Virus record (IMG/VR): IMGVR_UViG_2802429227_000004 | Coordinates: 1 to 25,029 of that record | Length of the DNA: 25,029 bases | Direction: 5' to 3' (one strand) | Origin: a virus | Taxonomy: Duplodnaviria; Heunggongvirae; Uroviricota; Caudoviricetes | Part shown: piece after piece, positions 5,122 through 25,029 of the stretch | Numbering within the stretch: position 1 is the first letter of the stretch | Layout: every line of letters begins with the position of its first letter | Program-made: the position numbers and the translations under genes | Notes under the pieces: model-generated | The model's input: the letters and a program-made list of their open reading frames with translations, nothing else | What the model was told of the DNA's origin: nothing | Database searches by the model: none

Positions 5122-5127
5122 AATTAT

Positions 5128-9984: not shown

Positions 9985-9990
9985 TTGCGT

Positions 9991-11325: not shown

Positions 11326-11447
11326 AGAAAATGATGATTTTTTCTATAAGATTCAATCAATTAGTAATGGTCGTAGGTGATGGCATTAACACGAGATTAA
11401 TCGAGTGTTTTACTCCTATTATCGGCACCATTCTAACGTCTCCCCAA

Positions 11448-11597
11448 GTCTACTCAAGTATTTAAAAAACTCTTATAATCCGCATGTTAGCGCCCCTTTT
11501 AGTCTTTTGATGTCTACTTAAGTACCCCAAAATCTACAGTCAATTGGGGGTACTTTTGGGGGTATTTGCTGTTCGGTTTAGTGGAGGTACCCCCAAG
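11448..11597. repeat. Direct and inverted repeats in the 271 bp spacer between the two integrase genes (candidate att core or integrase binding sites)
   Basis: gtctactcaagta (11448..11460) and gtctacttaagta (11512..11524); inverted pair taccccaaaa (11523..11532) / ttttgggggta (11553..11563); extra ggtacccccaag at 11586..11597. Confidence 0.5.
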
Positions 11598-12811
11598 TGA
11601 AACTCAATGCCCGTCAAATAGACACTGCCAAGCCAAAAGAGAAGGCTTACAAGCTGGCTGATGGTGGTGGTCTGTATCTCTTGGTAAAACCTAGTGGAGG
11701 AAAATATTGGCGCTTCAAATATCGTGTAGCTGGTAAAGAGAAGCTGTTAGCACTAGGTGTGTATCCTGAAGTTACCTTGGCTGATGCTCGTGCAAAACGT
11801 GAAGAAGCTAAAAGGGGGATCGCTGGGGGTATCGATCCGATGGAAGCGAAACGAGAGGAAAAGATTGCCCGGGAAACGCAGTTAAACAACACCTTCAAAG
11901 ATATTGCCCTTGAGTGGCACAGCAGCAAATTAAAAAAATGGTCTGCTGGTTATGCTTCAGACATCCTCGAAGCCTTCAACAAAGATGTGTTCCCTTACAT
12001 TGGCAAAAAACCAATCGCCGAAATCAAACCACTTGAACTGCTGAATGTGCTGCGGCGCATCGAGGGGCGCGGTGCTACCGAAAAAGCCAAAAAAGTGAGG
12101 CAGCGATGCGGGGAAGTTTTCCGCTATGCAATTGTCACTGGACGTGCTGAGTATAACCCTGCACCGGATCTCACCAGCGCGATGCAAGGTCATGAATCTA
12201 ATCATTATCCTTTCCTCACAGCCAAAGAATTACCTGATTTTTTCAAGGCATTGTCCAGTTACTCAGGAAGTGCATTGGTTGTTATGGCGGCTCGTCTACT
12301 GATTATCACCGGTTTGCGGACTGGCGAACTGCGCGGTGCATTATGGGATGAAATCGATCTCAACAAGGCTATCTGGGAGATACCTGCTTCACGGATGAAA
12401 ATGCGTCGCCCTCATGTGGTGCCTTTGTCTAAGCAGGCTCTTTCGCTTATTGGGCAGATTAAAGAATTAACTGGCAATTATCCGCTTATGTTTCCCGGCC
12501 GTAATGATCCAAGGAAAACAATGAGCGAGGCTAGCATAAACCAAGTATTTAAACGCATCGGCTATAACGGAAAGGTTACTGGTCATGGATTCCGGCACAC
12601 CATAAGCACCATTTTGCATGAGCAGGGCTATAACACCGCGTGGATAGAGACACAGCTCGCACACGTCGATAAAAACTCAATTCGTGGCACATACAACCAT
12701 GCGCAATATCTGGATGGTCGCCGGGAGATGCTCCAGTGGTATGCCGACTATATGGATTCGCTCGAGCATGGCGGAAATGTGGTGCATGGTGAGTTCGGAA
12801 AATGCGGGTGA
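11597..12811 (+). CDS. int: P4-type tyrosine integrase (404 aa), GTG start
   Basis: N-terminus KPKEKAYKLADGGGLYLLVKPSGGKYWRFKYRVAGKEKLLALGVYPEVTLADARAKREEAK is the hallmark arm-binding domain of P4-family integrases; catalytic HGFRHT ... QLAHVD ... RGTYNHAQY. Confidence 0.9.
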   Translation: MKLNARQIDTAKPKEKAYKLADGGGLYLLVKPSGGKYWRFKYRVAGKEKLLALGVYPEVTLADARAKREEAKRGIAGGIDPMEAKREEKIARETQLNNTFKDIALEWHSSKLKKWSAGYASDILEAFNKDVFPYIGKKPIAEIKPLELLNVLRRIEGRGATEKAKKVRQRCGEVFRYAIVTGRAEYNPAPDLTSAMQGHESNHYPFLTAKELPDFFKALSSYSGSALVVMAARLLIITGLRTGELRGALWDEIDLNKAIWEIPASRMKMRRPHVVPLSKQALSLIGQIKELTGNYPLMFPGRNDPRKTMSEASINQVFKRIGYNGKVTGHGFRHTISTILHEQGYNTAWIETQLAHVDKNSIRGTYNHAQYLDGRREMLQWYADYMDSLEHGGNVVHGEFGKCG

Positions 12812-12909
12812 CTGGTTGAGTATACAGTAGTAGACTTTGAGCACCTAAAAAGGCTGATGCAAACAGAGCTGGCTCGGCCTTAACATTAGACCGCTTGAAG
12901 GGGGAGAAT

Positions 12910-13626
12910 ATGCCAATTGTGGAAAACATTCCTGACTTATCCCACTGGCGAACAATACAGGAGTTTTCTATCACCCAGGCCGCTTTATTGTTGGCCGGAA
13001 TTGATCCTTATGATTACCCTACTCTTGAACATGTCAGAGATAATAAACATGAACGTTGGAAAATGGCATGGGGGTTGGCTAATGGAATGGTAACAGCCAT
13101 CCGTCGTGGTGTCTTAACTCCTGTTGAATGTACCTCTGAAATAGTTGAATACGATAATTGGGGAAATGTTTGTGATATTGAGTACAAACGTCTGACATCA
13201 GCGCAACTGACCGATCGTGCATATGAGATAAGCAAGGATAAAACTTTAATTAGTCGCCATTCTTTATATGAGTGGATAAAAAATGAGAGCGTTGATTTTG
13301 CGAGATGCCCTCGCCCTATACCTGTTAAGGAAGTTAATCCGCCAGCAATCATTGAATCATCTCATCAGGTAATTAATCCTGACGAGTATTTGTGTACTTA
13401 TGGGCATAAGAGTGATGGGTTGGAGTATGTGCAGGATGCTATAAGAGAACTATGGTCGACGTATGACCCAGATGACCCACAGACGGCTCCGACAGAGCAT
13501 GAGGTACTTGAATATTTGAAAAAACGGGGGGCGGGTTCTAATGTTGCTAGGGCTGTGAATCTGATTTTAAGGCCTGAACATCTGAAGCGTATTGGTAGAA
13601 GACCAAAAAAACAAAAAGTTAAATAG
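12910..13626 (+). CDS. Hypothetical protein (238 aa) between int and alpA
   Basis: ORF-track ORF 12895..13626 begins at a TTG; ATG at 12910 preceded by AAGGGGGAG is preferred. No recognised motifs. Confidence 0.6.
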   Translation: MPIVENIPDLSHWRTIQEFSITQAALLLAGIDPYDYPTLEHVRDNKHERWKMAWGLANGMVTAIRRGVLTPVECTSEIVEYDNWGNVCDIEYKRLTSAQLTDRAYEISKDKTLISRHSLYEWIKNESVDFARCPRPIPVKEVNPPAIIESSHQVINPDEYLCTYGHKSDGLEYVQDAIRELWSTYDPDDPQTAPTEHEVLEYLKKRGAGSNVARAVNLILRPEHLKRIGRRPKKQKVK

Positions 13627-13881
13627 TGGTCGCTATTCCAGAAAAATGGTGGTTTCCTTTCAAAAAAAAGTAACCACCAATGCAGATTAAATCGTAAGAA
13701 CAGTAATTTTTCTTCGTGTTTCACGTCAGCATGATACTTAAAATAGTAAACGCCATTATTAAAAAAAGGTGGAGCTATTTCACTGAAATGGTATTCGCCA
13801 TTCATAATGGTAAGCATCTATAAATATCACTTTTCTTAATGCAAGCTATGTACACCTTTATAGACGTTACAAGGTGAATAT

Positions 13882-14079
13882 ATGGCAAACTCTCTTATTC
13901 GTTTAACGGAAGTTCAGCGTAGAACTGGATATAGCAAGGCATGGATTTATCGCCTTATGGGGCAAGGTAAATTTCCTGCATCAGTTAAAATTGGCTCGCG
14001 AGCTATTGCTTTCGTTGAGAGTGAAATTGACGAGTGGATTAATCAGCGTATTGCGGAATCACGCGGAACAGCTACCTGA
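13882..14079 (+). CDS. alpA: AlpA-family phage transcriptional regulator/excisionase-like protein (65 aa)
   Basis: LIRLTEVQRRTGYSKAWIYRLMGQGKFPASVKIGSRAIAFVESEIDEWI matches the AlpA HTH family; position just after a P4-type int; AAGGTGA RBS. Confidence 0.85.
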   Translation: MANSLIRLTEVQRRTGYSKAWIYRLMGQGKFPASVKIGSRAIAFVESEIDEWINQRIAESRGTAT

Positions 14080-14157
14080 TTAAATGGCTACGGGGCCAGA
14101 AGCCCCAACTATCCACTAGCAAATAAAAAGTAACTTAATTCGATAGCAGGAGTTTTT

Positions 14158-15006
14158 ATGAAACAGCGAAAAACGCCCGTACAGGGGCAGGGCTTCGTTC
14201 GGCCTGAAAACCAGAATCTGCAAAATTTCGGCGAAATTATCCCGGTTATTTCCGGCGTTATTGGCGGACGTGAAACCAATATTGTTAGCGCCAGAGCGTT
14301 GCATAAGGCGCTGGGTGTGAAGCGTGATTTCACAACCTGGATTAAAGGACGCATTGATGAGTACGGATTTAAAAAGGGCGTGGATTTTGAAGTTGTAGAT
14401 AATTTGTACTTTGATTCCCCGAAACGGGGGAACCAAAGTGTAAATATTGAACAGTTTGATTTTGATTGGACAACAAAGCGCGGCGGTGATCGTCGCAGTG
14501 AAGACTATTTGATCTCCACGAACATGGCGAAAGAACTGGCGATGGTCGAGCGCACCGAACAGGGCCGCGCCGATCGTCAGTACTTCATCAAATGCGAGGA
14601 GGAGCTACACAAGGTAGCGCCAGTGCGTTCCGCAGCGTTACGCCGGGAACTGAAAGCCCGTATCTCCGTTGCCAGCTACTTTAAGCCGATGTGTGCCGCG
14701 CTGGAGGCGTACCGGGCTGAACTGGGTAAAAACACACTCCAGCACCACTACACCACGGAAGCCAATATGCTGGCGCGTATCGTGCTGGGTGGCATGACTG
14801 CAAAACAGTGGACGCAGGCGAACGGCATCACAGGCGAACCACGCGACCACATGAGCACGTTGCAGCTTGAGCACCTTTCTTACCTTGAGCAGAGCAATAT
14901 CACGCTGATTGAGTTAGGCCTGGACTACCACCAGCGGAAAGCTGAATTAATTCGTCTTTCGCAGCGTTGGTTAGCCCGTCGCATGGAGGAAAACAGCCAT
15001 GTGTAA
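14158..15006 (+). CDS. Phage antirepressor-like protein (AntA-like N-terminal domain, KilA-C-like C-terminal region), 282 aa
   Basis: Segment VSARALHKALGVKRDFTTWIKGRIDEYGFKKGVDFEV resembles AntA/Rha-type antirepressor N-terminal domains; AGGAG RBS. Confidence 0.65.
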   Translation: MKQRKTPVQGQGFVRPENQNLQNFGEIIPVISGVIGGRETNIVSARALHKALGVKRDFTTWIKGRIDEYGFKKGVDFEVVDNLYFDSPKRGNQSVNIEQFDFDWTTKRGGDRRSEDYLISTNMAKELAMVERTEQGRADRQYFIKCEEELHKVAPVRSAALRRELKARISVASYFKPMCAALEAYRAELGKNTLQHHYTTEANMLARIVLGGMTAKQWTQANGITGEPRDHMSTLQLEHLSYLEQSNITLIELGLDYHQRKAELIRLSQRWLARRMEENSHV

Positions 15007-15420
15007 CGCTCTGACCGTTACAAAAAGAGAAAGCGCCCCGTTGCCGGAGCGCCTTTGTGAACGAATAGCCTACTGCGCCATATTGCTTACTGTCTACGAG
15101 GCAGATTATAGCGTTGTGGTCGCACAGAGTGAAGGCGCTGATCACCGTTACTACAGCACGCCAGAAATGCAGAATATTTTGCTGCAAAATGTCGTTGGTC
15201 ACGCTGTCCGGAAAGCAAAAAATTTTGCTGGTGGCGCGACTGATGCGATTTTGTCAGGTCGCAAGGTGATGATCAATCTGATGTCTAATTTCGTTCTGGA
15301 TAAAACAAAGGCGACCGCAGAGGGCCACCAGTGGGAAAGCTACACACTTGAACACATCGCCAACAATGCCAGATTTGCGGCTGGTGGGCAATGTGATCAG
15401 TGTGCTGGCTTGCTGGTGGG
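14999..15420 (+). other. ORF of uncertain extent; only about the first 130-140 codons of the 512 aa ORF-track call look protein-like, and the 3' end is undefined
   Basis: Start overlaps upstream stop as ATGTGTAA. After about codon 140 the translation becomes Cys/Ser/Arg-rich low complexity and runs across a well-supported minus-strand gene (15679..15984) and into gene 16172..16537 in the same frame. Confidence 0.25.
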
Positions 15421-15678
15421 CTATTCCTGCTCTTTAACATTGCCATGCCGCGATGTTTTCCAGGTATGCGACCCCATTTTTGTGCGCCTGTACTCTTTAA
15501 GGAATTTCTCAAGGATAAACGCACAGGGCGCGAATCTGTCTGACTCATATTCGTACGCTATCTTTCTGCGCTGTCTTTTCCGTGCCGGTGATGGTGTATT
15601 GGTCGATTCTTTGTTGGTCATTCTGTGTACCTGTAAAGCAATGCGCCGGAGTTCCTCACACCACGGCGATGATAGTTA

Positions 15679-15984
15679 TTATTCTGATTCTTTGGCCTTG
15701 CGGCGCTGGAGTTCTTCACGTGCGACGGTGACGAGCTGCCCGATCTCCTCGACAGCTTTGACTCCGATTTTTTCCACCTGCGCCAGTGCATTGAGCGAAG
15801 AAACCAGGGGATTTTCTCCGCTTCCTTCTGCCTGGCGGCGGGCGATCTCACCACGCATGGCGGTTACTATGAATCCGGCGTTGCTTTCGCCGTCCAGTTT
15901 TACGGATTCCATGCCTTCAAAAGCATCATGTGGGATACGAATTGAAATCTGTTTTGATTTGTCGTTGATAGTGTTTTTTGCCAT
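15679..15984 (-). CDS. Ribbon-helix-helix-like DNA-binding protein (101 aa), candidate repressor divergent from the replication operon
   Basis: AGGAGA RBS 6 nt upstream of the ATG at 15982..15984 (ORF-track call 15679..16023 uses an upstream Met without RBS); KQISIRIPHDAFEGMESV strand-helix pattern. Confidence 0.65.
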   Translation of the reverse strand: MAKNTINDKSKQISIRIPHDAFEGMESVKLDGESNAGFIVTAMRGEIARRQAEGSGENPLVSSLNALAQVEKIGVKAVEEIGQLVTVAREELQRRKAKESE

Positions 15985-16171
15985 GTGCATTCTCCTAAAC
16001 AAAAGATGTGATTCAGTATACACAAAAAAGAATCACAAAAAATACTTGACCTGTGATTCAGTTAAATTTAATTTAAATCACACCTCAGTAAGAGGATATA
16101 AACGACAACGCCCCGAACTGTTTGCGGCAGTAGCGGGGCGTCTAACCAAACCGTTAAATGAGGTAACGATT
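15985..16171. promoter_or_regulatory. Divergent promoter/operator region with TGTGATTCAG repeats
   Basis: gatgtgattcagtatacac (~16005), gaatcacaaaa (~16030), cctgtgattcagttaaat (~16049), aaatcacacc (~16075); TTGACC -35-like element at ~16045. Confidence 0.5.
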
Positions 16172-16537
16172 ATGGCTGGGGCACAGCATACCCAAACTCA
16201 CCCTAAATTTATATACACCTTCCTGGCGGTGCACCGTGATTGCATGGCTGACGGTAAAAACACTGTTCATGTAGCCGCCGATACGCTGGTTGATGCCTGC
16301 GAGATGCTCAATGACATGGGCTATATCTCGGCAACATGGAAAGGGCGCGAAGAAAACACGTTGTTTATTCAGAAATGCGAAAACAATTTTATCTGGCGTT
16401 TTATCGCCCTGAGTACGGCACAACCGCGCGTGATTCACATCGAGGCCACCAGCGAACAGGAAGCACGCCAGCAATCTCCTGATGGCTGCGTGATGGTATT
16501 CGCTGCCCGTATTCGCCAGGAGGTGGAGCATGTGTAA
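16172..16537 (+). CDS. Hypothetical protein (121 aa), first gene of the small-gene/primase operon
   Basis: GAGG RBS then ATG at 16172; in the ORF track this is the in-frame tail of the 14999..16537 ORF. Confidence 0.6.
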   Translation: MAGAQHTQTHPKFIYTFLAVHRDCMADGKNTVHVAADTLVDACEMLNDMGYISATWKGREENTLFIQKCENNFIWRFIALSTAQPRVIHIEATSEQEARQQSPDGCVMVFAARIRQEVEHV

Positions 16538-16754
16538 TGCAACATGGCCTGATGCAGCGGTAGACGCTATCAAAACGCTGATGGATTCACTTATTGAGAT
16601 TTCTGCTATCGCTGGTGTGGCGCATAAACACGCAGCCAGAGAATCAGAATGCATCTCCCATTATTTAGCATTTGTGCAGCTGAAAGCCGATCAGGCACTG
16701 GATAAGGCCGGAAAAATTATCATGGCTGATGTACAGGAGGTGCACCATGCATAA
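16530..16754 (+). CDS. Hypothetical small protein (74 aa)
   Basis: Start overlaps upstream stop as ATGTGTAA (16530..16537). Confidence 0.55.
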   Translation: MCNATWPDAAVDAIKTLMDSLIEISAIAGVAHKHAARESECISHYLAFVQLKADQALDKAGKIIMADVQEVHHA

Positions 16755-17112
16755 CCTGTCAATTTCTGACCTTAACAGCATTCAGTTTGACGAGATATTT
16801 TCCGGGCAGCTACTGGTTAACGTGGAGAATGGACGCGTGGTAAGTAATTATCACCTGCCGGATGGTGCAATTGCCGGAAGCGTTGAAGCATTGCTGGAAC
16901 TGGCGGAACGTGCGCGACTGATTAAGCCGTCAACGTGCCATCACGATGATGATCTGCATTTTACCGGGTGTATGGTGAGTCACTACGAAAACGGCGTTGA
17001 AGTATCCTGCGAACGTCTGCGTGATGATTGCTGTTTCGGCACACTGCCGGAATTTATCGAATTGCTGACCAGTTGCGGTTATCAGGTCATTCAGGGGGGT
17101 AAACATGCGTGA
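16747..17112 (+). CDS. Hypothetical protein (about 121 aa)
   Basis: GGAGG RBS; ATG at 16747 overlaps upstream stop as ATGCATAA; ORF-track call starts 18 nt earlier. Confidence 0.55.
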   Translation: MHNLSISDLNSIQFDEIFSGQLLVNVENGRVVSNYHLPDGAIAGSVEALLELAERARLIKPSTCHHDDDLHFTGCMVSHYENGVEVSCERLRDDCCFGTLPEFIELLTSCGYQVIQGGKHA

Positions 17113-17338
17113 TGATCGTTTTAATTCCCTGAAACAGGAGTTTGATGGCGCACCGGAAGATACATCGGGCGCATTGTTGAGCATTGCTGACATGATGAAA
17201 GCTGCATATTTTCTTATCAATACCAGGGGCTACAAGTCAGAGGGTGAAATGATTCTTAGTATTGCGTCGGACTATGCTGAATATGTGGCAGAGACGCGTT
17301 ACAGAAGAAAATCTCTGGAGGATGTAAGCCATGCATAA
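17105..17338 (+). CDS. Hypothetical small protein (77 aa)
   Basis: Start overlaps upstream stop as ATGCGTGA (17105..17112). Confidence 0.55.
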   Translation: MRDDRFNSLKQEFDGAPEDTSGALLSIADMMKAAYFLINTRGYKSEGEMILSIASDYAEYVAETRYRRKSLEDVSHA

Positions 17339-17531
17339 TCATGAAGCGCATGTACCCGTAGTGCTTAATGTGCCAGATGATTTCACCGGACGCGTGCTGG
17401 TTTACCTTGATAAAGAAAAAGTGAAATCACAATGCCGACTGAAAAGTAATGAGATTGTGGGTTCTCCTGAATTTTTTTCTGAACTCTGTATTCGTGCAGA
17501 AATAAAACCGGAACTGCTGACAGGAAAATAA
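17331..17531 (+). CDS. Hypothetical small protein (66 aa)
   Basis: Start overlaps upstream stop as ATGCATAA (17331..17338). Confidence 0.55.
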   Translation: MHNHEAHVPVVLNVPDDFTGRVLVYLDKEKVKSQCRLKSNEIVGSPEFFSELCIRAEIKPELLTGK

Positions 17532-17535
17532 AACC

Positions 17536-17826
17536 ATGAAAAGGAAAAATTCTGGCTTTACTGCCAGCGGTCTCTCTCGGCCTGAAATCAGACACGGAGA
17601 TATTTACCGCGACACCAGACGTGGGGGACGAGTGGTTATTCGTCACGTTACGCCAGGCAATATCACCTACCGCCGTGAGGCTTACGAATATGACTGCGTA
17701 ATGCCGCGCCGTCAGTTTGAGCGTGATTTTATTCTGGTGGAAAACAAACAACAGGCAGTGGCGAGACGTGCAGCCACGAATATTAAAAAAATCCGGGCAA
17801 TGTTGGTTGCGGGAGGTAAGAAGTGA
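17536..17826 (+). CDS. Hypothetical basic protein (96 aa) immediately upstream of the primase
   Basis: ATG 5 nt after the upstream stop; 4 nt GTGA overlap with the primase gene start. Confidence 0.55.
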   Translation: MKRKNSGFTASGLSRPEIRHGDIYRDTRRGGRVVIRHVTPGNITYRREAYEYDCVMPRRQFERDFILVENKQQAVARRAATNIKKIRAMLVAGGKK

Positions 17827-19628
17827 AAAACGCACCGAATTTAAAATATCAGCCGAAGGATAAATTCACCGAGGTAATCATTTTTGCCGGGACGGATGCT
17901 TACGCCCATGCTCAACACTGGATTGAAAGCGAAGGACGAAAACACGGCGATAACGTGCCTCCTGTTTACCTGGGGCCAAAGCAACTGGCAGACCTGGCGA
18001 ATATCCGCATTGTCGACGATGAACGCCGCTTTGCGCGTGTCTATCTCGCGGGGGAGATAGAGCCAATCCAGATCAATGCTATTGCTGAAAAGCTGGCGCT
18101 GGCTGGTGTACAGGACGCGAAATTATACAAAGGTATCACCGACCGGGAGCCGGAAAACTGGCGCGACTACCTGCAACGGATCCGCGAACAGGCAGAGAGT
18201 GGGGAAGTTTCAGCGATGAAATTAGCCACAAAAAATATTGACCTATCTAGGCCAGCACTAAATCAGATGGGAGCCAGCCAGAGAGGGGAAGTGTTACTTG
18301 AATATTATGGAAGAGCACTGGCTATAAATGATGATTCTGATGTAGTTCACCATTACAACGGAATTGTCTGGGTGCCTGTATCTGATAAGGAACTCCAGCG
18401 GTCTATGGCGAAGATTTTTATTGATGCTGGAATCAGTTATTCGCAAAACGCCATTAAATTTGCCGTAGACACAATGAAATTGAGCCTGCCTGTTATGGGC
18501 GGGGCAGACAGGAATCTTATTGGATTCAGTAACGGGGTATTTGATACCCGGACGGGAAATTTTCGGGAGCATAACAAAAATGACTGGTTGTTAAATGCCA
18601 GTGAATTACCGTTCAGCCCACCAGCAGAGGGGGAAACGCTGGCAACACATGCGCCGAATTTCTGGAAGTGGCTGCGTCGTTCGGTGGCAGATAATGATCG
18701 TAAAGCTGATCGCGTACTGGCGGCATTATTCATGGTGCTGGCGAACCGGTACGACTGGCAGTTATTCCTTGAGGTAACAGGCCCAGGCGGAAGCGGTAAA
18801 AGTGTGATGGCTGAGATTTGTACCATGCTGGCGGGTAAGGCCAACACAGTATCGGCAAGCATGAAGGCTCTGGAAGACGCAAGGGAACGCGCGTTAGTAG
18901 TTGGCTTTTCGCTGATTATCATGCCGGATATGACTCGCTACGCTGGCGATGGTGCAGGAATTAAGGCAATTACTGGCGGCGACAAGGTGGCAATTGATCC
19001 GAAACATAAAGCCCCCTACTCCACACGTATTCCGGCAGTAGTGCTTGCGGTAAACAATAACGCCATGTCATTCAGTGACCGAAGCGGGGGGATCTCGCGT
19101 CGTAGGGTGATATTTAATTTCTCTGAGGTCGTACCGGAGAACGAACGCGATCCCATGCTGGCGGAAAAGATAGAAGGCGAACTGGCGGTAGTGATTCGCC
19201 ATTTGCTAACACGATTTACCGACCAGGACGAAGCTAAAAGACTACTTTATGAGCAGCAAAAATCAGAAGAAGCGCTGTTGATAAAGCGCGAAGGTGATTC
19301 ACTGGTGGACTTTTGCGGCTATCTGATGTCGTTGGTTAAATGTGAAGGAATGATGGTGGGCAATGCGGAAATAGTGCCATTTAGCCCGAGGCGATACCTG
19401 TATCATGCTTATTTAGCCTATATGTCAGCGCATGGCCTGGGAAAACCAGTATCACTGACACGCTTTGGTACTGATATGCCAGGAGCTATGGCGGAATACG
19501 GAAAGGAGTATAAGCGGGCTAAATGCACTAAAGGCCCGGATAAAGGGCGAGTGATAACAAATGTTCTGTTAGATGATGATGCTGATGGCTGGTTGCCAGC
19601 AGCTACAGGGATTAACGACAGAACATAA
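17823..19628 (+). CDS. Phage/plasmid primase-helicase, P4 alpha/D5 family (601 aa)
   Basis: Walker A P-loop VTGPGGSGKSV in the C-terminal half; overall size and architecture of satellite pri-rep proteins; followed by an iteron origin. Confidence 0.8.
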   Translation: MKNAPNLKYQPKDKFTEVIIFAGTDAYAHAQHWIESEGRKHGDNVPPVYLGPKQLADLANIRIVDDERRFARVYLAGEIEPIQINAIAEKLALAGVQDAKLYKGITDREPENWRDYLQRIREQAESGEVSAMKLATKNIDLSRPALNQMGASQRGEVLLEYYGRALAINDDSDVVHHYNGIVWVPVSDKELQRSMAKIFIDAGISYSQNAIKFAVDTMKLSLPVMGGADRNLIGFSNGVFDTRTGNFREHNKNDWLLNASELPFSPPAEGETLATHAPNFWKWLRRSVADNDRKADRVLAALFMVLANRYDWQLFLEVTGPGGSGKSVMAEICTMLAGKANTVSASMKALEDARERALVVGFSLIIMPDMTRYAGDGAGIKAITGGDKVAIDPKHKAPYSTRIPAVVLAVNNNAMSFSDRSGGISRRRVIFNFSEVVPENERDPMLAEKIEGELAVVIRHLLTRFTDQDEAKRLLYEQQKSEEALLIKREGDSLVDFCGYLMSLVKCEGMMVGNAEIVPFSPRRYLYHAYLAYMSAHGLGKPVSLTRFGTDMPGAMAEYGKEYKRAKCTKGPDKGRVITNVLLDDDADGWLPAATGINDRT

Positions 19629-19655
19629 TACGAAATTTATAAGCTGAAACGTAAA

Positions 19656-19991
19656 GGTAGACGGTTGGTAGACAGATTCACTTAACCCTCTACCAACCAT
19701 CTACCAATTAATATTTTGAATTATAAAGATATTTTCAATGTAGTAGAGAGGTAGACAGTTATTTCTATATTCCTAAACCACGGGGGGTATATAAAAAACA
19801 GATAGTTAAGGGGGCATTTTTTAAATTTCTCTTTTAACTGTCTACACTGTCTACCATTTAGTAAAAATCATTAATTATCAATGTATTAATGCGGTAGACC
19901 GTTGGTAGACAGTTTGCAGATTGTTTTTTTGTTATGTGTTAATAACATTAAATAAATCAATCAATTATATCGGTAGACAGTTGGTAGACAG
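19656..19991. repeat. Iteron-type origin: about 6 direct and inverted copies of GGTAGAC(A/C/G)GTTGGTAGACAG
   Basis: 19656..19675 direct; 19689..19704 inverted; 19750..19760 half site; 19839..19856 inverted; 19893..19912 direct; 19972..19991 direct; separated by AT-rich DNA. Confidence 0.75.
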
Positions 19992-20011
19992 TTGTAACGA
20001 TGGGGCAAAGC

Positions 20012-20542
20012 ATGACTAAGCTGACCATTAACAGAAAACCAAAAGGTATTTACGGCACGCCGCAGAAAACGACGCAGGCGGCACAGGAGCAGGATAAAAC
20101 CACATCGGCGCATAAAGTGATGCCCGGTAACCAGAAAGCGCAGCAGAAGCCTACAGGGGCGACACCGTGGCGGCATATGACCAAACGCCAGCGCAAAAAC
20201 CGCAGGCGCGTTAACCGCCTCACTGAGTTGTGGCCTGACTTATTCAGCCGGGAAGCACTGAAGCCGCTTAAGGTGGGGATATTCGACGACCTGATGCAGG
20301 ATCTCGCCGCCAGGGGGCTGGCATTCGGGCCAGGGGCATTGCGTGCGACGCTGGCATCTTATGCGCAGTGTCCGCGCTATTACCGCGCCTTAATGGCTGG
20401 TGGGGTACGCTACGACCTGAAAGGCCAGCCGTGCGGCGAGGTGACACCACAGGAACAACAGGACGCAGAAACGCGGCTGGTGGCGCTGAATGAGAAGCGC
20501 AAACGCCAGTGCCGGGCAGCAAAGGAGACAATAGGCGCATGA
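20012..20542 (+). CDS. ProQ/FinO-domain RNA-binding protein-like (about 176 aa)
   Basis: LWPDLFS...PLKVGIFDDLMQDLAARG...ALRATLASYAQCPRYYRALMAGGVRYDLKGQPCGEVT resembles the ProQ/FinO domain of E. coli ProQ; start at 20012 (GGGG upstream) preferred over 20000. Confidence 0.7.
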   Translation: MTKLTINRKPKGIYGTPQKTTQAAQEQDKTTSAHKVMPGNQKAQQKPTGATPWRHMTKRQRKNRRRVNRLTELWPDLFSREALKPLKVGIFDDLMQDLAARGLAFGPGALRATLASYAQCPRYYRALMAGGVRYDLKGQPCGEVTPQEQQDAETRLVALNEKRKRQCRAAKETIGA

Positions 20543-20826
20543 TTCACGACAGCAAAGCGGAAGCACTGGAAGCGCGTGGTCTGTACCGGAGAGCGGCGGC
20601 GCGGTGGGCTGAGGTCATCATGCTGGCGAATGATGACAAGGCACGGGAACAGGCGGCAAAACGTCGCGCGGAATGTATCCACAAGGCAGCACGCCCACCA
20701 GCAAGGCAGGATAATTTCGGGGAGATGCGCGAAACCATCAGCCGGGCACATGCCGGGATGGGATTACATCAGCCCAATGGTGAGGCATTCAGGAAATACC
20801 AAAAAAAGAACAATTGTAGTCAGTAA
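20539..20826 (+). CDS. PerC-family transcriptional regulator-like protein (95 aa)
   Basis: MIHDSKAEALEARGLYRRAAARWAEV is PerC-like; 4 nt ATGA overlap with the upstream gene; ORF-track call starts 30 nt earlier without RBS. Confidence 0.6.
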   Translation: MIHDSKAEALEARGLYRRAAARWAEVIMLANDDKAREQAAKRRAECIHKAARPPARQDNFGEMRETISRAHAGMGLHQPNGEAFRKYQKKNNCSQ

Positions 20827-20960
20827 CAGAGGATGGGATTCTCTTGGTTTTTTGTTGATGCTTTCTGAGGAAATCTACTACGTTGCTGAGCAGATGAATA
20901 TTCAATTGCATCTGGGTTCCTGATAAGATTAATCTGAATATTTTCATTTGGAATAGGGAT

Positions 20961-22103
20961 ATGAATAAAACTTTAATTGCAACATTAGTCGGTATAGTAA
21001 TGTTAACCGGATGTGGGCCAGAAGAGTTAACTCCAGAACAGAAACAGGAAGTAGCTGCTCTTAAAGCTGAACTGTCGCAAACGGAAGGTGAAATATCAGC
21101 AGCTAAGGAAGTTGACCAGCAGTTTTCTGGTGGGTTGATAAAAAATCTGACAACAGCAAGACTGGAAATATTAGGAACTAATAAAGCGCTTTTGGAACAG
21201 CGTATTAATGCTATTGAATCAGGTGCCAAAATTGATGTTGTTGTATCTGGAGTAAAACCTGATCCTGAGCTTGCGGCTTCAATTAAAACTGAAATTGACA
21301 GCTTAGATGCAAAAATCAACGAAGCCAAAGCTGATGCTCGTCAGTATAGTGGTGGTCTGATAAAGGTACTAAAATTATCTACTGTTGCCACTGAAGAGCA
21401 GACCATGGCAATGTTGCAGCAAAAGTACCTCACAGCCAAGTATGGCCTCGCTGAAGTTAAGCTGGCATCAGTACAAGCTAATGACGCAAAAAACAGTACT
21501 GAAACGGAAGTAACAGCCAAAAATTCCCAAGAGCAACTTCCTTTACTCCCGCCAGCGGATGGTCCGTTTGGCTTAGAAGCCGGTCTTACACAGAAAAACA
21601 TCGAAGATATGATCGGTGCTAAGCTCAAGCCACTACCAGACAGTGTGAATCTGTATACTTCTGATAAATTACCGAAGCAAAACGCAGATTTTGAAATGTA
21701 TGGTTTGCTGATCTCCCCGAAAGCTGGTTTATGTCAAATACGGGCTTTAGGAAAAAATATTGATACTGATAGCTATGGATTGGCTCTTAAATCCAAGTTT
21801 GAAGAATTGAGTAATTCTTTAAGTTCTCTGTATGGAAAGGCTGATACTACAGACTTTTTGCTGGCTGGTTCAATTTGGAAAGATCCTCAGGACTGGATGA
21901 GGGGGCTAAACAAAAAAGAACGCTTCTTATCTGCCACATGGAAGGGAACAAAAGAAATACCATTAAAAAACAATATTGATACTATATCTATTGAGGCCAG
22001 AGCGAACAATTCCACTCAGGGATATGTCTATCTGCAGTACTCATTTACAAATGACGAAATTTGTCAGGCAGAAATTGAAGGGGCGAAAAAAAGTTCCCTT
22101 TAA
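20961..22103 (+). CDS. Predicted lipoprotein (380 aa) with internal repeats; low-GC cargo gene
   Basis: Signal peptide with lipobox MNKTLIATLVGIVMLTGC; repeated QQFSGGLIKNL / RQYSGGLIKVL units; AT-rich compared with flanking genes. Confidence 0.75.
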   Translation: MNKTLIATLVGIVMLTGCGPEELTPEQKQEVAALKAELSQTEGEISAAKEVDQQFSGGLIKNLTTARLEILGTNKALLEQRINAIESGAKIDVVVSGVKPDPELAASIKTEIDSLDAKINEAKADARQYSGGLIKVLKLSTVATEEQTMAMLQQKYLTAKYGLAEVKLASVQANDAKNSTETEVTAKNSQEQLPLLPPADGPFGLEAGLTQKNIEDMIGAKLKPLPDSVNLYTSDKLPKQNADFEMYGLLISPKAGLCQIRALGKNIDTDSYGLALKSKFEELSNSLSSLYGKADTTDFLLAGSIWKDPQDWMRGLNKKERFLSATWKGTKEIPLKNNIDTISIEARANNSTQGYVYLQYSFTNDEICQAEIEGAKKSSL

Positions 22104-22113
22104 ACAATCCGTG

Positions 22114-22145
22114 CAAAGCCCCTTAGTAAGGGGCTTTTATATATT
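22114..22145 (+). terminator. Rho-independent terminator after the lipoprotein gene
   Basis: aagcccc-ttagtaa-ggggctt hairpin followed by ttat. Confidence 0.65.
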
Positions 22146-22167
22146 AATGTTCAACGTGGGGGATTAG

Positions 22168-22491
22168 ATGAAAGATAATCTAGCAAAACTAATTGAAAAT
22201 ACTTTAAAAGATATTCTATTAGCTAATGCTGCTCTAACATTCATTTTTGCAATACCAATGGCTATTATCAGTAGGCATGGGATGGGCATCACAATCTGGT
22301 TTATAACTGTGCTCATTGCACCTGCTCTGTGTGCAGTAGGTGCATGGCTTGTATCTCGAACATCCGGCCATGCTGAGGAGTTCTTTCATCGTCGGTGGGC
22401 TAAGCGAATTTATGTTTTTTATACTCTTGCGGCTGCCGAGTTTTTGCTTGTGTACTCAATCGCGCAAATAATGAAAAATCTGATGAAATAA
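22168..22491 (+). CDS. Small integral membrane protein (107 aa, 2-3 predicted TM helices)
   Basis: Hydrophobic stretches AALTFIFAIPMAII, ITIWFITVLIAPALCAVGAWLV, VFYTLAAAEFLLVY; GGGG RBS. Confidence 0.6.
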   Translation: MKDNLAKLIENTLKDILLANAALTFIFAIPMAIISRHGMGITIWFITVLIAPALCAVGAWLVSRTSGHAEEFFHRRWAKRIYVFYTLAAAEFLLVYSIAQIMKNLMK

Positions 22492-22685
22492 TTAACAAGT
22501 TATTATCATGGAGCTTGTGGCTGTTAACCTGCAGTGAGGCGACAATCGTGTATTTATAAAAACTTCCCCTTTTCACTCCCCGCTGCTTCTTCTGCTATTG
22601 CCTTTATGTTTGCATCTGCCATACCTTTGCAGAAAAATCAGAGCATTCAGTGCCGAAGGTTGGTTTATTGATGCTTTTCGTTTCA

Positions 22686-22745
22686 TTTATTGCAATTGTC
22701 TCTGGTATCATTTCAATTTGTGCAATAATTGCAATTATTGTCATT
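22686..22745. promoter_or_regulatory. Operator-like array of TTGCAAT-containing repeats upstream of gene 22760
   Basis: ttattgcaattg (22688..22699) and aatttgtgcaataattgcaattattg (22712..22740); the reverse complement of ATTGCAAT is itself, so the core is palindromic. Confidence 0.5.
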
Positions 22746-22759
22746 CAGAAGGGATCATC

Positions 22760-22927
22760 ATGAAAAATCACGGAGTAAAGCCAGTTTTACTTTCCCGGAG
22801 GCAGATCGAAGCCCTGCAACGCATCCAGGACGAAGAGCGTCAGAAATCTGTGCTTGGTGTGGCACCGTCGATTCATGTTATCGCTCGGCAACTGATGGAT
22901 AAGGCACTTAAAGAGGTGAGACTGTGA
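22760..22927 (+). CDS. Hypothetical small protein (55 aa)
   Basis: ATG at 22760 with AGAAGGGA RBS; the ORF-track ORF 22598..22927 extends upstream through the operator repeats and is not credible there. Confidence 0.5.
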   Translation: MKNHGVKPVLLSRRQIEALQRIQDEERQKSVLGVAPSIHVIARQLMDKALKEVRL

Positions 22928-23196
22928 AATTAAATATCAGAGTGGATAAACGCCAGCTATGGCAGAAAAAAGAGAACAGCGAGGCATTCAGGGCGTTGCT
23001 GGTGGAAAATCTTCAGCATCGGTTCAGTGGAGAGTTGCCTGATGCTCTAGGGAAGAAACTGGAATCCCTGACGGTGGAAATTGGCGATTATGGCTTTGTT
23101 GATGTTGAAAGCACGACTGCCAACACAGAAATCGTAAAACAGGTCGTCAATGATGTAATGAAAACCACGCTTAGCCAGCCATCCTGGCGCAACTGA
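22924..23196 (+). CDS. Hypothetical protein (90 aa), GTG start
   Basis: 4 nt GTGA overlap with the upstream gene, suggesting translational coupling. Confidence 0.5.
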   Translation: MKLNIRVDKRQLWQKKENSEAFRALLVENLQHRFSGELPDALGKKLESLTVEIGDYGFVDVESTTANTEIVKQVVNDVMKTTLSQPSWRN

Positions 23197-23295
23197 ATCA
23201 GTAAGGGGCGGTTATTGCCCCTTTCCTCCATACCCACAACGCATTCCCTTTCCGCATGAAATTATTTTTTATCGTATATGCATGAGGTGAGCTAC

Positions 23296-23823
23296 ATGTT
23301 GATGAGTAAAGCCGAATACGCCAAATACAAAGGCGTAAGCCGCCAGACAGTTTACGACTGGCTCGAGAAAGGCGAAGTGGTCATGTCCGGTAAAAAAATT
23401 GATGTGGAAGCGACAGAGCAGCGGAACAGCCCACCAGCACAGGGGAAAGACACCATTTCTGAAATGTGGCCAGAAAGAACGCTGGAAATGACATGGGGCG
23501 AGTTCTGGAAAGCAGTTAAGGCCAGAGACGGTAAAATTCCTGCGCCAGTAACGGACGAGGGCATACAGCAGCGTGTGCTGTATGCAGCCGGGGAATTAGG
23601 CTGGGAAGTGCACTTTCTTGATGATGGTGCTATCTGCCTTGAGGATGATGAAGGGCAGCATTACTTTGAAAAATACAATTTGCGAGGTAATGCCAGGCTG
23701 GCAATTCGTATGCTGCGTTGCGAACTCTGCTATGTTGCAGGTGATTATCCCGATGAACCGGAATCATGGAGTGAAGCCGGGTTAAACGCCCTGGCTGAGT
23801 GGGAAAAATCAGACCATCAATGA
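23296..23823 (+). CDS. Winged-HTH DNA-binding protein resembling the N-terminal domain of lambda terminase small subunit Nu1 (about 175 aa); candidate packaging-redirection (Rpp/TerS-like) protein
   Basis: MSKAEYAKYKGVSRQTVYDWLEKGEVV aligns, from memory, with lambda Nu1 KKQLADIFGASIRTIQNWQEQGMPV (pattern A-x-x-x-G-x-S-x-x-T-x-x-x-W-x-E-x-G); GAGGTGA RBS 6 nt before the ATG at 23296; similar size to Nu1. Confidence 0.55.
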   Translation: MLMSKAEYAKYKGVSRQTVYDWLEKGEVVMSGKKIDVEATEQRNSPPAQGKDTISEMWPERTLEMTWGEFWKAVKARDGKIPAPVTDEGIQQRVLYAAGELGWEVHFLDDGAICLEDDEGQHYFEKYNLRGNARLAIRMLRCELCYVAGDYPDEPESWSEAGLNALAEWEKSDHQ

Positions 23824-24115
23824 CATCAAAAAGTGTCAAGTTGAGCAGCTTGCCAGCTTGCCAGCTTGCCAGGTTGACACTTTACACTCTGAACGCGAAA
23901 AAGTGTCAACCTCGCTGTAAGCCCCGCAATTACTGGGTTTGTGCCAGATTTACCACGTCAAAAAGCCGAAAAAACCGCGAAAAATGTCAAGTTGCCATGC
24001 TTAGAAATGCTAAGGTTTTTCGCGAAAAAGTGTCAAGTGTGTCAACCTGCGATATTAAGATTTATTAAGGTCTTAAGCCGGAAAGTGTCAACCAGCCCCC
24101 TAAGATTTCCTAAGG
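23824..24115. repeat. Array of at least 7 copies of (A)AAGTGTCAA(C/G) in both orientations plus AGCTTGCC x3 and TAAGATTTnnTAAGG repeats; candidate packaging (cosB-like) or binding site array
   Basis: GTGTCAA cores at ~23833, 23873 (inverted), 23903, 23984, 24030, 24038, 24084; cgcgaaaaagtgtcaa occurs 3 times; cttgccagcttgccagcttgccagg at 23849..23873. Confidence 0.75.
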
Positions 24116-24212
24116 TGTGATTGGACGTGCTGTAACCTTCTTGTCGCAATGTGGATGAATGACTATAGTGCTGGTAGCTTTGACAGCAGAATCAGATTAC
24201 TGAAGGAAATGT

Positions 24213-24797
24213 GTGATGAGTTTTTTTAGTCTTTATGGGAAAGAACTATTTTCTTTTTTTATAACGATTTTAACATGGATACTGAATAACAGATTTAAAA
24301 GCAAGGCAAAGTTATCCTATGGTTATCAGCATGGATTTACTTTTCTTCTCAATGAACCCTTACGGAATGCCAATGGTGAGGTAATATCTAATTCACAGTT
24401 GGTGTATACACGATCTATTATTCTTGTTAATGAAGGGCGAGAAAGTGCTACTAATATCTCATTGGTTTTTAACTATAAGCCAATGCATATTAATTTTTGG
24501 CCTGTCCACCATTTTGAAGAAAATATTGAACAGGATGGTCGCTATATTATCAAGTTTGAAAGCCTTGCACCTGGTGAGTCTATTCAATGTGAAATATTAT
24601 CAATAAATAGAGAAGTTCCAAGTATTCTATCGATAAGATCTAAAGAGTGTGTGGCTGAGCCAGTGAATATCGTGATGCAAAAATCGATTAGTAATATTGC
24701 CCTACGTTGCTATCAATTATTAATACTTCTTGGAACTGGCACATTAACATATTTAATTATCGTTATTCTGCAATGGTTAGTCACTAAAACGGGATAA
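24213..24797 (+). CDS. Low-GC hypothetical membrane protein (194 aa) with N-terminal and C-terminal hydrophobic helices
   Basis: Strongly AT-rich coding sequence; FFITILTWIL near the N-terminus and LLILLGTGTLTYLIIVILQWLV at the C-terminus. Confidence 0.6.
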   Translation: MMSFFSLYGKELFSFFITILTWILNNRFKSKAKLSYGYQHGFTFLLNEPLRNANGEVISNSQLVYTRSIILVNEGRESATNISLVFNYKPMHINFWPVHHFEENIEQDGRYIIKFESLAPGESIQCEILSINREVPSILSIRSKECVAEPVNIVMQKSISNIALRCYQLLILLGTGTLTYLIIVILQWLVTKTG

Positions 24798-24846
24798 TCC
24801 ATTGTATTGAACTTATTAATTGGATATGAGTGCTGATAGGAAACCT

Positions 24847-25029
24847 ATGACCATCACCGAAGCCGATATGCTGGAGATGATCCGCAGCATTGCCGGAATC
24901 AAACAACCAGCAAGCAAAATTAACAGGTGTTCAGCGCCTGTTTCCGTTGTGCTGCAACAGGAACGCCACCAGCGGCGGGAAAACGAAAAGGCGTACCAAT
25001 GGACGAAGCCAAACAAGTTACGGCGTTAA
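24847..25029 (+). CDS. Hypothetical protein, 5' partial at window end
   Basis: AGGAAA RBS then ATG at 24847 (MTITEADMLEMIRSIAGIK...); the ORF runs off the window. Confidence 0.4.
   Translation: MTITEADMLEMIRSIAGIKQPASKINRCSAPVSVVLQQERHQRRENEKAYQWTKPNKLRR

What the first reader, a model, noticed from the sequence alone, without database searches (positions are those of the whole stretch)
20961..22491. Low-GC cargo pair: repeat-containing lipoprotein plus small membrane protein
An AT-rich insertion within the GC-balanced satellite encodes a lipobox lipoprotein (380 aa) with internal SGGLIK-containing repeats, an intrinsic terminator, and a 107 aa multi-TM protein. Prophage and satellite lipoproteins often mediate superinfection exclusion by masking receptors, and the compositional contrast indicates recent acquisition. 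This is a candidate uncharacterised exclusion or defence locus.
Basis: partly seen in the sequence, partly recalled or inferred. Interest (0 to 1): 0.6.

Follow-up and report, generated by a model that had tools for sequence, protein, structure and literature searches.

The report
Uncharacterised lipoprotein cargo in a phage satellite
A 1.8-kb AT-rich cassette inserted in an E. coli phage satellite (PICI) encodes a conserved outer-membrane lipoprotein from a large unnamed protein family, plus a small membrane protein; the same lipoprotein rides in prophage tail and lysis regions, so it is a plausible but untested envelope-level phage-exclusion or host-conversion gene.

Summary
Window 20961-22103 encodes a 380-aa lipoprotein (lipobox LTGC) with two SGGLIK-centred helical-hairpin repeats. 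A hairpin terminator follows at 22115-22137, then a 107-aa three-helix membrane protein at 22168-22491. Both genes are about 40% GC between 47-59% GC neighbours.

The element is an E. coli PICI at tRNA-Thr (thrW). A related PICI in strain ABU 83972 has 17 bp where this window has 20841-22679, so the pair is an insertion.

Both genes are under purifying selection (dN/dS 0.05 and 0.17). Neither matches Pfam, NCBIfam, PADLOC or PHROGs.

The lipoprotein has two separable parts:
- a helical stalk, which elsewhere is fused to other heads;

Full-length homologues sit in three settings:
- just downstream of the primase gene in three PICI backbones;
- in lambdoid prophage tail modules, often 65 bp before the tape-measure gene;
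- beside lysis genes.

Some have Imm-like superinfection-immunity neighbours. Function is not shown. The best guess is envelope-level exclusion; host conversion is a serious rival. This is a new family of a known kind (moron-encoded envelope lipoprotein).

The parts
20841..22679 (.). Inserted cargo cassette (1839 bp) between perC and the 55-aa ORF of the PICI backbone
   Evidence: blastn against the ABU 83972 PICI: window 20401-20840 matches L051 9314-9752 and window 22680-23300 matches L051 9770-10389, leaving 17 bp in the empty site. GC is about 0.38-0.43.
20851..20864 (+). Left copy of a 14-nt direct repeat (TTTGTTGATGCTTT) at the insertion junction
   Evidence: the repeat finder family D11, 13/14 identical to 22664-22677, spacing 1813 nt, coinciding with the independently mapped junctions. 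It could be a recombination scar or chance.
20961..22103 (+). Lipoprotein gene, 380 aa
   Evidence: ORF; 318 full-length homologues; dN/dS 0.051; no hit in any family library.
20961..21014 (+). Signal peptide and lipobox (aa 1-18; L-T-G-C, Cys18 lipidated; Gly at +2, so outer-membrane sorting is inferred)
   Evidence: Read directly from the sequence. G17, C18, G19 and P20 are invariant in 21 homologues.
21033..21218 (+). Helical hairpin 1 of the N-terminal stalk (aa 25-86; SGGLIK turn at aa 56-61)
   Evidence: AlphaFold helices 25-53 and 59-86. A profile hit to designed antiparallel coiled-coil hairpins, 9tls, E=1.7e-4. Internal repeat z of about 10.
21264..21443 (+). Helical hairpin 2 of the N-terminal stalk (aa 102-161; SGGLIK turn at aa 130-135)
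   Evidence: AlphaFold helices 102-126 and 133-161; repeat alignment.
21453..21545 (+). Variable, probably disordered linker (aa ~165-195)
   Evidence: pLDDT below 50 for residues 162-193. This is the only poorly conserved stretch in alignment A1.
21549..22100 (+). C-terminal globular alpha/beta domain (aa 197-380), starting GPFGLEAGLT; conserved Cys258 and Cys368; conserved KKSSL tail
22115..22137 (+). Intrinsic-terminator-like hairpin between the two genes
   Evidence: Terminator scan; perfect 11-nt arms, repeat I15; stem conserved with a changed loop in Klebsiella.
22168..22491 (+). 107-aa small membrane protein with three hydrophobic helices; a lineage-specific partner
   Evidence: ORF; hydropathy; 17 clusters, all Enterobacterales. 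It always lies 64-67 nt after the lipoprotein gene, in 33/33 loci. dN/dS 0.167.
22664..22677 (+). Right copy of the junction direct repeat (TTTATTGATGCTTT)
20509..20826 (+). Backbone flank: PerC-family regulator gene, preceded by ProQ/FinO at 20000-20542 and the D5/P4-type primase at 17823-19628
   Evidence: Pfam PerC E=1.8e-31, ProQ E=2.5e-23, D5_N/DUF5906/Pox_D5.
22760..23823 (+). Backbone flank: 55-aa ORF, 90-aa ORF and a 181-aa HTH/TerS-like protein, conserved in PICIs with and without the cassette
   Evidence: tblastn markers in L051, L052 and L059-L074. PHROG 57 terminase small subunit E=2.2e-6. No match to solved Rpp structures.

Best explanation
Shown: the locus is a moron-like accessory cassette (window 20841-22679) in the primase-proximal variable region of an E. 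coli phage-inducible chromosomal island integrated at tRNA-Thr (thrW).

It encodes two proteins.
(1) A lipoprotein, probably anchored in the outer membrane and facing the periplasm (Gly at +2). It consists of a stalk of two antiparallel helical hairpins, a flexible linker, and a well-folded alpha/beta head. The head belongs to a large, unnamed, phylum-spanning family of secreted proteins.
(2) A 107-aa three-helix membrane protein, found only in the E. coli/Klebsiella/Edwardsiella clade.

Inferred: the cassette benefits the carrier cell at the envelope. The most likely role is interference with entry of other phages (superinfection exclusion). The head would bind an envelope component or an incoming tail or tape-measure component in the periplasm, and the small membrane protein would act as a lineage-specific inner-membrane partner. 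The molecular target is unknown.

The confidence given (0.4) is for the whole statement including the exclusion function; the anatomy and cargo status alone I would put at about 0.9.
For: Anatomy:
- The ORFs, lipobox, repeats and terminator are all present.
- The structure models support a stalk plus a folded head.
- Conserved Cys258 and Cys368, and a signal peptide in every homologue, fit an extracytoplasmic location.

Cargo status:
- A related PICI has an empty site.
- Another relative carries different genes in the same slot.
- The gene is lower in GC than its surroundings in all 10 hosts checked.
- It carries its own conserved terminator.

Context on mobile elements:
- The gene sits immediately or shortly after the primase gene in three different PICI backbones: E. 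coli, Enterobacter and Yersinia. PMC11364771 reports this region as carrying anti-phage systems.
- At least 11 lambdoid prophages carry a homologue in the tail module, in eight or more of them 65 nt upstream of the tape-measure gene. HK97 gp15, a proven exclusion moron, lies between the tail chaperone and tape-measure genes (PMC3594210).
- Other homologues sit beside a GH108 endolysin.
- In Enterobacter-type PICIs an Imm_superinfect (PF14373, E=4e-16) plus Zn-ribbon membrane protein lies about 670 nt downstream.
- The head matches phage 'lipoprotein' models in BFVD, with E=5.9e-7 and TM 0.61 to an Erwinia phage protein.
- Lipoproteins encoded in structural-gene clusters of E. coli temperate phages do exclude phages experimentally (PMC11893012).

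Selection: there is strong purifying selection on both genes.
Against: - No functional data exist.
- No sequence or convincing fold similarity to any known exclusion or defence protein was found.
- The C-terminal domain is mostly a stand-alone chromosomal gene in Acidobacteria, Cyanobacteria, Desulfobacterota and Proteobacteria. It has no conserved partner, and no phage or defence enrichment appears among 128 neighbouring proteins.
- The protein is highly conserved (60-90% identity across genera). Receptor-masking proteins are usually small and receptor-specific.
- No sigma-70-like promoter was found upstream, so expression in the uninduced state is unproven.
- The 107-aa partner is absent from most homologues and is not Imm-like (hhalign probability 0.6%).
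- There are no hits in 50,697 isolated-phage genomes.
Confidence: 0.4

Rival explanations
1. Lysogenic-conversion or host-fitness factor unrelated to phage entry. The periplasmic or outer-membrane lipoprotein would protect or remodel the envelope, for example by conferring serum or complement resistance like Bor/Iss/TraT, by inhibiting exogenous peptidoglycan hydrolases, or by acting as an orphan immunity protein against periplasm-acting T6SS, colicin or Rhs toxins.
For: - Stand-alone homologues of the head domain are ordinary chromosomal secreted proteins in many phyla, which suggests a generic envelope activity.
- The N-terminal stalk is fused to a T6SS-associated VasI domain in P0184 and to a peptidoglycan-binding domain in a Paracoccus plasmid protein.
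- Prophage positions next to lysis genes and inside tail modules mirror those of lambda bor and lom (lambda gene order from general knowledge).
- Carrier strains include EAEC 55989, O104:H4 and APEC.
Against: - No adjacent toxin or effector gene was seen in any locus.
- There is no homology to Bor, TraT or lysozyme-inhibitor families.
Confidence: 0.3
2. The gene serves the satellite's or phage's own lytic cycle. Expressed after induction as part of the pri-perC operon, the lipoprotein would mask a receptor or envelope component so that released particles are not wasted on lysed-cell debris (as T5 Llp does), or it would tune lysis.
For: - The gene has the same orientation as the pri/proQ/perC and packaging genes, with no recognisable promoter of its own.
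- In some prophages it lies 65 nt upstream of the tape-measure gene inside the late operon, and in others next to the endolysin gene.
Against: - An internal terminator follows the gene.
- The cassette is dispensable for the backbone, as the empty site in ABU 83972 shows.
- Orphan copies persist intact without any mobile-element backbone in Pantoea, Serratia and Pseudenterobacter.
- It is not a spanin: there is no C-terminal membrane helix and no i-spanin partner.
Confidence: 0.15
3. Neutral hitch-hiker. A periplasmic protein gene of general function was picked up by mobile elements and has no element-specific role.
For: There is a broad chromosomal distribution of the head domain with unremarkable neighbours. 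Orphan copies exist.
Against: - The gene was recruited independently into at least three PICI backbones and several prophage sites.
- dN/dS is 0.05.
- It is 99-100% conserved in 112 E. coli genomes.
- A fixed 64-67-nt linkage to a co-evolving partner holds in one clade.
Confidence: 0.1

Closest known systems
Phage T5 Llp and phi80/N15/HK022 Cor; mEpimmI phage Lpp exclusion lipoproteins (PMC11893012)
   Same: These are lipobox lipoproteins encoded by mobile elements, located in or beside structural or accessory gene clusters. They act, or would act, at the envelope of the carrier cell.
   Different: They are small proteins that mask one receptor (for Llp and Cor, this rests on general knowledge). 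The protein here is 380 aa with two modules, shows no sequence or family match, and has an unknown target and an unproven activity.
HK97 gp15 moron (superinfection exclusion; PMC3594210)
   Same: - It is an extra, compositionally distinct gene in the tail operon adjacent to the tape-measure gene, as for the prophage homologues here.
- It has bacterial chromosomal homologues.
- It carries a terminator.
   Different: gp15 is a small inner-membrane YebO-like protein, not a lipoprotein, and there is no homology. In the window the gene sits in a PICI, not a phage.
Lambda Bor/Iss and plasmid TraT outer-membrane lipoproteins
   Same: They are outer-membrane lipoproteins carried by mobile elements as accessory genes. 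In lambda, bor lies next to the lysis cassette (general knowledge), as do homologues L104 and L107 here.
   Different: There is no Pfam or NCBIfam match, and size and fold differ. Serum resistance was not tested.
PICI primase-adjacent accessory region carrying Tai systems (PMC11364771)
   Same: The genomic slot is the same, downstream of pri in Gram-negative PICIs.
   Different: As described in that paper, Tai acts on tail assembly inside the cell. The protein here is exported and unrelated in sequence.
T4 Imm (Pfam Imm_superinfect PF14373)
   Same: An Imm-domain plus Zn-ribbon membrane protein is a neighbour of the lipoprotein in Enterobacter-type PICIs. Both are small inner-membrane proteins next to an envelope protein.
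   Different: The 107-aa protein of this window is not related to it.

Membership tests
Bacterial lipoprotein (Lgt/LspA substrate) | N-terminal signal peptide ending in the lipobox [LVI][ASTVI][GAS]C | tested here: met
   The sequence is MNKTLIATLVGIVMLTG-C18. The lipobox is invariant in 21 homologues.
Bacterial lipoprotein (Lgt/LspA substrate) | Actual lipidation, and sorting to the outer membrane when there is no Asp at +2 | not testable with these tools
   Gly at +2 suggests Lol-dependent outer-membrane sorting. This is an inference only.
Moron (Juhala/Hendrix sense, as summarised in PMC3594210) | Extra DNA relative to otherwise collinear relatives | tested here: met
   1839 bp here against 17 bp in the ABU 83972 PICI.
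Moron (Juhala/Hendrix sense, as summarised in PMC3594210) | GC content different from the flanks | tested here: met
   0.39-0.40 against 0.47-0.59. The same holds in 10 other hosts.
Moron (Juhala/Hendrix sense, as summarised in PMC3594210) | Own terminator | tested here: met
   Hairpin at 22115-22137, with the stem conserved in Klebsiella. It lies after the first gene, not after the whole cassette.
Moron (Juhala/Hendrix sense, as summarised in PMC3594210) | Own promoter active in the repressed element | tested here: inconclusive
   The consensus scan found no sigma-70-like site upstream. About 45 nt upstream of the start are conserved with Klebsiella. No expression data are available.
Known anti-phage defence systems (PADLOC-DB 2.0) | Profile match to a component of a described system | tested here: not met
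   No families matched either protein at E <= 0.1.
Known exclusion or conversion lipoproteins (Llp, Cor, TraT, Bor/Iss) | Sequence-family membership | tested here: not met
   No Pfam, NCBIfam or PHROG hit above noise.
Spanins (o-spanin or unimolecular spanin) | Outer-membrane lipoprotein with either a C-terminal membrane helix (u-spanin) or an embedded or adjacent i-spanin gene within a lysis cassette | tested here: not met
   The C-terminus is soluble (ends ...AKKSSL). There is no lysis cassette in the PICI. Stand-alone chromosomal homologues exist.
T4 Imm-like superinfection immunity protein (for the 107-aa protein) | PF14373 domain | tested here: not met
   No Pfam hit. hhalign against Imm-like neighbours of the homologues gives probability 0.6%.
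PICI (Gram-negative phage-inducible chromosomal island), for the host element | Integrase plus AlpA-type HTH plus primase, no capsid, tail or lysis genes, about 10-15 kb, at a tRNA or other specific att site | tested here: met
   The annotation of near-identical islands at tRNA-Thr between proA and yagU/pao genes shows this layout, supported by Pfam. The architecture and site match those of EcCIMP1 (PMC11773190). Induction and helper dependence were not testable.

The most novel reading that the evidence does not exclude
The C-terminal domain defines a new, phylum-spanning periplasmic domain family. Together with small inner-membrane partners, it would form a previously unrecognised envelope barrier to phage genome delivery, used both by free-living bacteria and by satellites and prophages. 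The partners would include the 107-aa protein here and the Imm_superinfect/Zn-ribbon two-helix proteins elsewhere. The helical-hairpin stalk would be a reusable lipoprotein scaffold for different periplasmic heads.
Probability: 0.15. Interest if true: 0.75.

Novelty: new member of a known kind. Interest (0 to 1): 0.45.

Why it matters
If the cassette excludes phages, it would add a new, large lipoprotein family to the short list of envelope-level exclusion factors. It would also extend the primase-proximal PICI slot as an immune hotspot to exported proteins.

It would give a first functional handle on an unnamed domain found in about 2,900 protein clusters (clustered at 50% identity) across diderm bacteria.

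The gene is carried by clinically relevant E. coli (O104:H4, 55989, APEC), Klebsiella and Enterobacter. It could therefore affect phage-therapy host range or envelope-related virulence traits.

If it has no phage phenotype, it remains an ordinary uncharacterised moron.

Tried and rejected
**Family and structure searches that gave nothing useful**
- Pfam, NCBIfam, PADLOC and PHROGs scans of both proteins: nothing significant.
- Pfam and NCBIfam on stand-alone head proteins and on stalk fusions: only VasI and GYF_2 on the fused parts.
- PDB sequence profiles: only designed coiled coils for the stalk, nothing for the head.
- Foldseek against PDB with the full-length model: no hit with E <= 0.001.
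- The afdb50 library was unavailable.

**Hypotheses tested and dropped**
- The small protein as T4 Imm-like: rejected by hhalign.
- The small protein as a class I holin, and the lipoprotein as a spanin: rejected on architecture and context.

**Context searches that were uninformative**
- Conserved neighbours of distant homologues: none, apart from occasional Zn-ribbon membrane proteins. Pfam content of 128 neighbours is miscellaneous.
- The two 107-aa ORFs near the Pantoea homologue are unrelated to the window's small protein.
- Isolated-phage genomes: no tblastn hit.
- Accession-number literature search: no paper.
- The downstream 181-aa protein compared with solved Rpp structures: no match.
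- tRNA scan of the window: none.
- Look-ups of P0216 and P0158 gave no usable context.
- The first search for related loci attempt with alignment A2 failed because it lacked a conserved stretch.
Full report
**1. What is in the sequence**

- Window 20961-22103 (+) encodes 380 aa starting MNKTLIATLVGIVMLTGC. This is a canonical lipobox (L-T-G-C18) with Gly at +2.
- A perfect 11-nt-arm hairpin with a T-rich tail lies at 22115-22137.
- Window 22168-22491 (+) encodes 107 aa with three hydrophobic segments.
- SGGLIK occurs at aa 56-61 and 130-135. The two halves of the N-terminal region align with score 76, against 27.5 +/- 4.9 for shuffles.
- GC is 0.402 (GC3 0.32) and 0.389 (GC3 0.315). ProQ and PerC upstream are 0.56-0.59, and the primase and downstream genes are 0.47-0.50.

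Both ORFs are real genes.
- The lipoprotein has 318 full-length homologues at 60-99% identity in Escherichia, Klebsiella, Enterobacter, Serratia, Yersinia, Pantoea, Rahnella and Xenorhabdus.
- The small protein has 17 clusters at 67-97% identity.
- dN/dS against the Klebsiella copies is 0.051 and 0.167. The terminator stem is kept in Klebsiella while its loop differs.

**2. The host element and the insertion**

The window is E. coli-like DNA. The pair is 99-100% identical in 112 of 5426 complete E. coli genomes and is always chromosomal.

Near-identical islands, such as APEC E123 at 99.4% over window 11412-25000, sit at tRNA-Thr next to proBA. Their gene order is:
- integrase, hypothetical protein, HTH regulator, AntA/B antirepressor;
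- YlcI, Icd-like protein, small ORFs, DUF4222;
- D5/P4-type primase, ProQ/FinO, PerC;
- the lipoprotein and the 107-aa protein;
- small ORFs and an HTH/TerS-like protein;
- a variable 3' cargo: GapS1 in E123, and AAA plus DUF4435 in strain 55989.

This is the Gram-negative PICI architecture, at the same site as EcCIMP1 (PMC11773190).

The PICI of strain ABU 83972 has the same backbone. There, window 20401-20840 and 22680-23300 are contiguous apart from 17 bp. So 20841-22679 (1839 bp) is an insertion/deletion cassette. Another relative, strain cq9, has different genes in the slot.

A 14-nt direct repeat, TTT(G/A)TTGATGCTTT, sits at both junctions. [quoted passage not shown]

**3. What the proteins are**

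Neither protein hits Pfam, NCBIfam, PADLOC or PHROGs.

A profile search of 1.84 billion representatives found 2870 clusters at E <= 1e-3 and showed that the lipoprotein has two separable modules.

*The N-terminal module (aa ~20-165).* AlphaFold predicts two helix-turn-helix hairpins with the SGGLIK turns. A profile search of PDB hits only designed antiparallel coiled-coil hairpins. Elsewhere the module is joined to other heads:
- a VasI-like domain in P0184;
- unknown domains in P0191, P0193 and P0212;
- a protein annotated as peptidoglycan-binding, next to BREX genes on a Paracoccus plasmid.

I read it as a reusable periplasmic stalk.

*The C-terminal module (aa 197-380).*
- It occurs mostly alone, in ~200-aa proteins that always carry a signal peptide or lipobox.
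- It is found in Comamonas, Thiocapsa, Acidobacteria, Prochlorococcus, Xanthomonadales, Burkholderiaceae and Desulfobacterota.
- All sources call these proteins hypothetical or 'lipoprotein'.
- With 42 sequences AlphaFold gives pLDDT 95.9 and pTM 0.89: a seven-stranded antiparallel sheet packed by two long helices.
- BFVD gives phage proteins labelled 'lipoprotein' (Erwinia phage Midgardsormr38, E 5.9e-7, TM 0.61).
- Conserved Cys258 and Cys368 and the universal signal peptides fit an oxidising, extracytoplasmic location. A disulfide between them is an inference.

**4. Where the family lives**

Full-length homologues were found in the following settings.
- (i) E. coli-type PICIs after pri-proQ-perC (L059-L074).
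- (ii) Enterobacter/Klebsiella-type PICIs after a DUF927 primase.
- (iii) A Yersinia PICI, directly after a D5 primase and followed by SSB and an OLD-like nuclease.
- (iv) At least 11 lambdoid prophages, inside the tail module:
  - in Xenorhabdus, between the tape-measure gene and gpM;
  - in L092, L094-L095, L097-L099 and L101, 65-72 nt upstream of the tape-measure gene;
  - in L093, before the tail chaperone, downstream of Fic/Doc, a CI-like repressor and antirepressor genes.
- (v) Prophages in which a GH108 endolysin follows the gene (L104, L107).
- (vi) Orphan copies in Pantoea, Serratia and Pseudenterobacter.

In every host checked the gene has lower GC than its surroundings. It is rare on plasmids (16 of 72,556 records) and absent from 50,697 isolated-phage genomes.

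These positions are classic moron sites. HK97 gene 15, the founding moron and a superinfection-exclusion gene, lies between the tail chaperone and tape-measure genes (PMC3594210). Lipoproteins encoded in structural clusters of E. coli temperate phages exclude phages experimentally (PMC11893012).

**5. The partner question**

- The 107-aa protein follows the lipoprotein gene at +64 to +67 nt in all 33 loci of the clade with >=88% identity (E. coli, E. ruysiae, Klebsiella, Edwardsiella). A truncated copy is present in Yokenella.
- It is absent from all other clades, so the lipoprotein is the primary unit.
- In Enterobacter-type PICIs a 108-aa two-helix protein with an Imm_superinfect domain (PF14373, E 4e-16) plus a Zn ribbon lies about 670 nt downstream.
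- Related Zn-ribbon two-helix proteins flank the gene in three prophage lineages, and also in a Desulfobacterales and a Bryobacteraceae genome.
- Such proteins appear within 2.5 kb in about six independent contexts, against one farther away in the same loci. This is suggestive and not conclusive.
- The window's 107-aa protein is not related to them.

**6. Interpretation**

The anatomy and the cargo status are shown. The function is inferred.

The most likely role is an envelope-level one that benefits the carrier. I favour interference with entry of other phages, for four reasons: the recurrent recruitment into PICI immune slots and prophage moron sites, the tape-measure adjacency, the Imm-like neighbours, and the precedent of phage lipoproteins.

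Four observations weigh against this:
- The head domain is mostly a chromosomal stand-alone protein. It has no conserved partner and no phage or defence enrichment among 128 neighbours.
- The family is unusually conserved for a receptor-specific masker.
- No upstream promoter was detected.
- There is no similarity to any known exclusion or defence protein.

A non-phage conversion function is therefore a serious rival. Candidates are serum resistance, hydrolase inhibition and toxin immunity. A role in the element's own lytic cycle and neutral hitch-hiking are less likely.

**7. Verdict**

It is a new, uncharacterised family of a known kind, the moron-encoded envelope lipoprotein, in a recently recognised PICI accessory slot. 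It is of moderate interest and is directly testable by expression and phage challenge.

Noticed in passing
window 1-11400: A second, AT-rich integrated element lies in tandem upstream of the PICI. It has its own integrase on the minus strand (9991-11325), a major capsid protein E homologue (5997-7025) and a Dit-like tail protein (9196-9909). It is a small phage-like element or another type of satellite.
   Followed up: partly
window 24213-24797 and beyond the 3' end: A very low-GC (0.33) gene encodes a 194-aa protein with hydrophobic ends and no family hit. It lies at the start of the PICI's variable 3' cargo. Near-identical islands continue with GapS1 (APEC E123). Other relatives carry AAA plus DUF4435, a KAP NTPase, an OLD-like nuclease or a zinc-ribbon/ORC-like pair.
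   Followed up: partly
L077:~9575-9900 and equivalents; L096, L105, L106; L058:7778-8365; L027:5528-5788; L036:6697-7371: Small two-helix membrane proteins with a C-terminal Zn ribbon recur next to the lipoprotein or its stand-alone head domain. One clade carries an Imm_superinfect domain. They appear in PICIs, in prophages and in two distant phyla.
   Followed up: partly
window 20897-20942 and 20915-20960: An imperfect 17-nt inverted repeat (AATATTCAATTGCATCT / AGATTAATCTGAATATT) lies just upstream of the lipoprotein start. About 45 nt upstream of the start, including TTCCTGATARGATTAATCYGAAT, are conserved between E. coli and Klebsiella although the cassette flanks differ. This may be a regulatory site.
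   Followed up: no
window 22086-22100 (aa 376-380): The C-terminal tail K-K-S-S-L is nearly invariant in Enterobacterales. A small-x-hydrophobic C-terminus recurs in stand-alone homologues from other phyla. This may be a recognition tail; it was not examined.
   Followed up: no
L086, L087, L091: In these IMG/VR loci a PICI-type DUF927 primase region, the lipoprotein gene and a ~1000-1200-aa tape-measure-like gene lie within 12 kb. This is compatible with satellites embedded in prophage late regions, as described in PMC10111431.
   Followed up: no
window 22554-22754 (minus strand): RefSeq annotates a 66-aa hypothetical protein antisense to the 3' end of the cassette and the junction (L001 13655-13855). 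There is no evidence for or against it.
   Followed up: no
L114 (Paracoccus sediminicola plasmid p2) 2498-3796: A lipoprotein with the same helical-hairpin stalk but a head annotated as peptidoglycan-binding sits directly beside a BREX operon (WYL, DUF1819, DUF1788, BrxC) on a conjugative plasmid.
   Followed up: no
window 20000-20826: The ProQ/FinO and PerC genes form a GC-rich block (0.56-0.62) inside the PICI, overlapping by 34 nt. A PerC-like protein of a related PICI has been reported to silence LEE expression (PMC11773190).
   Followed up: no
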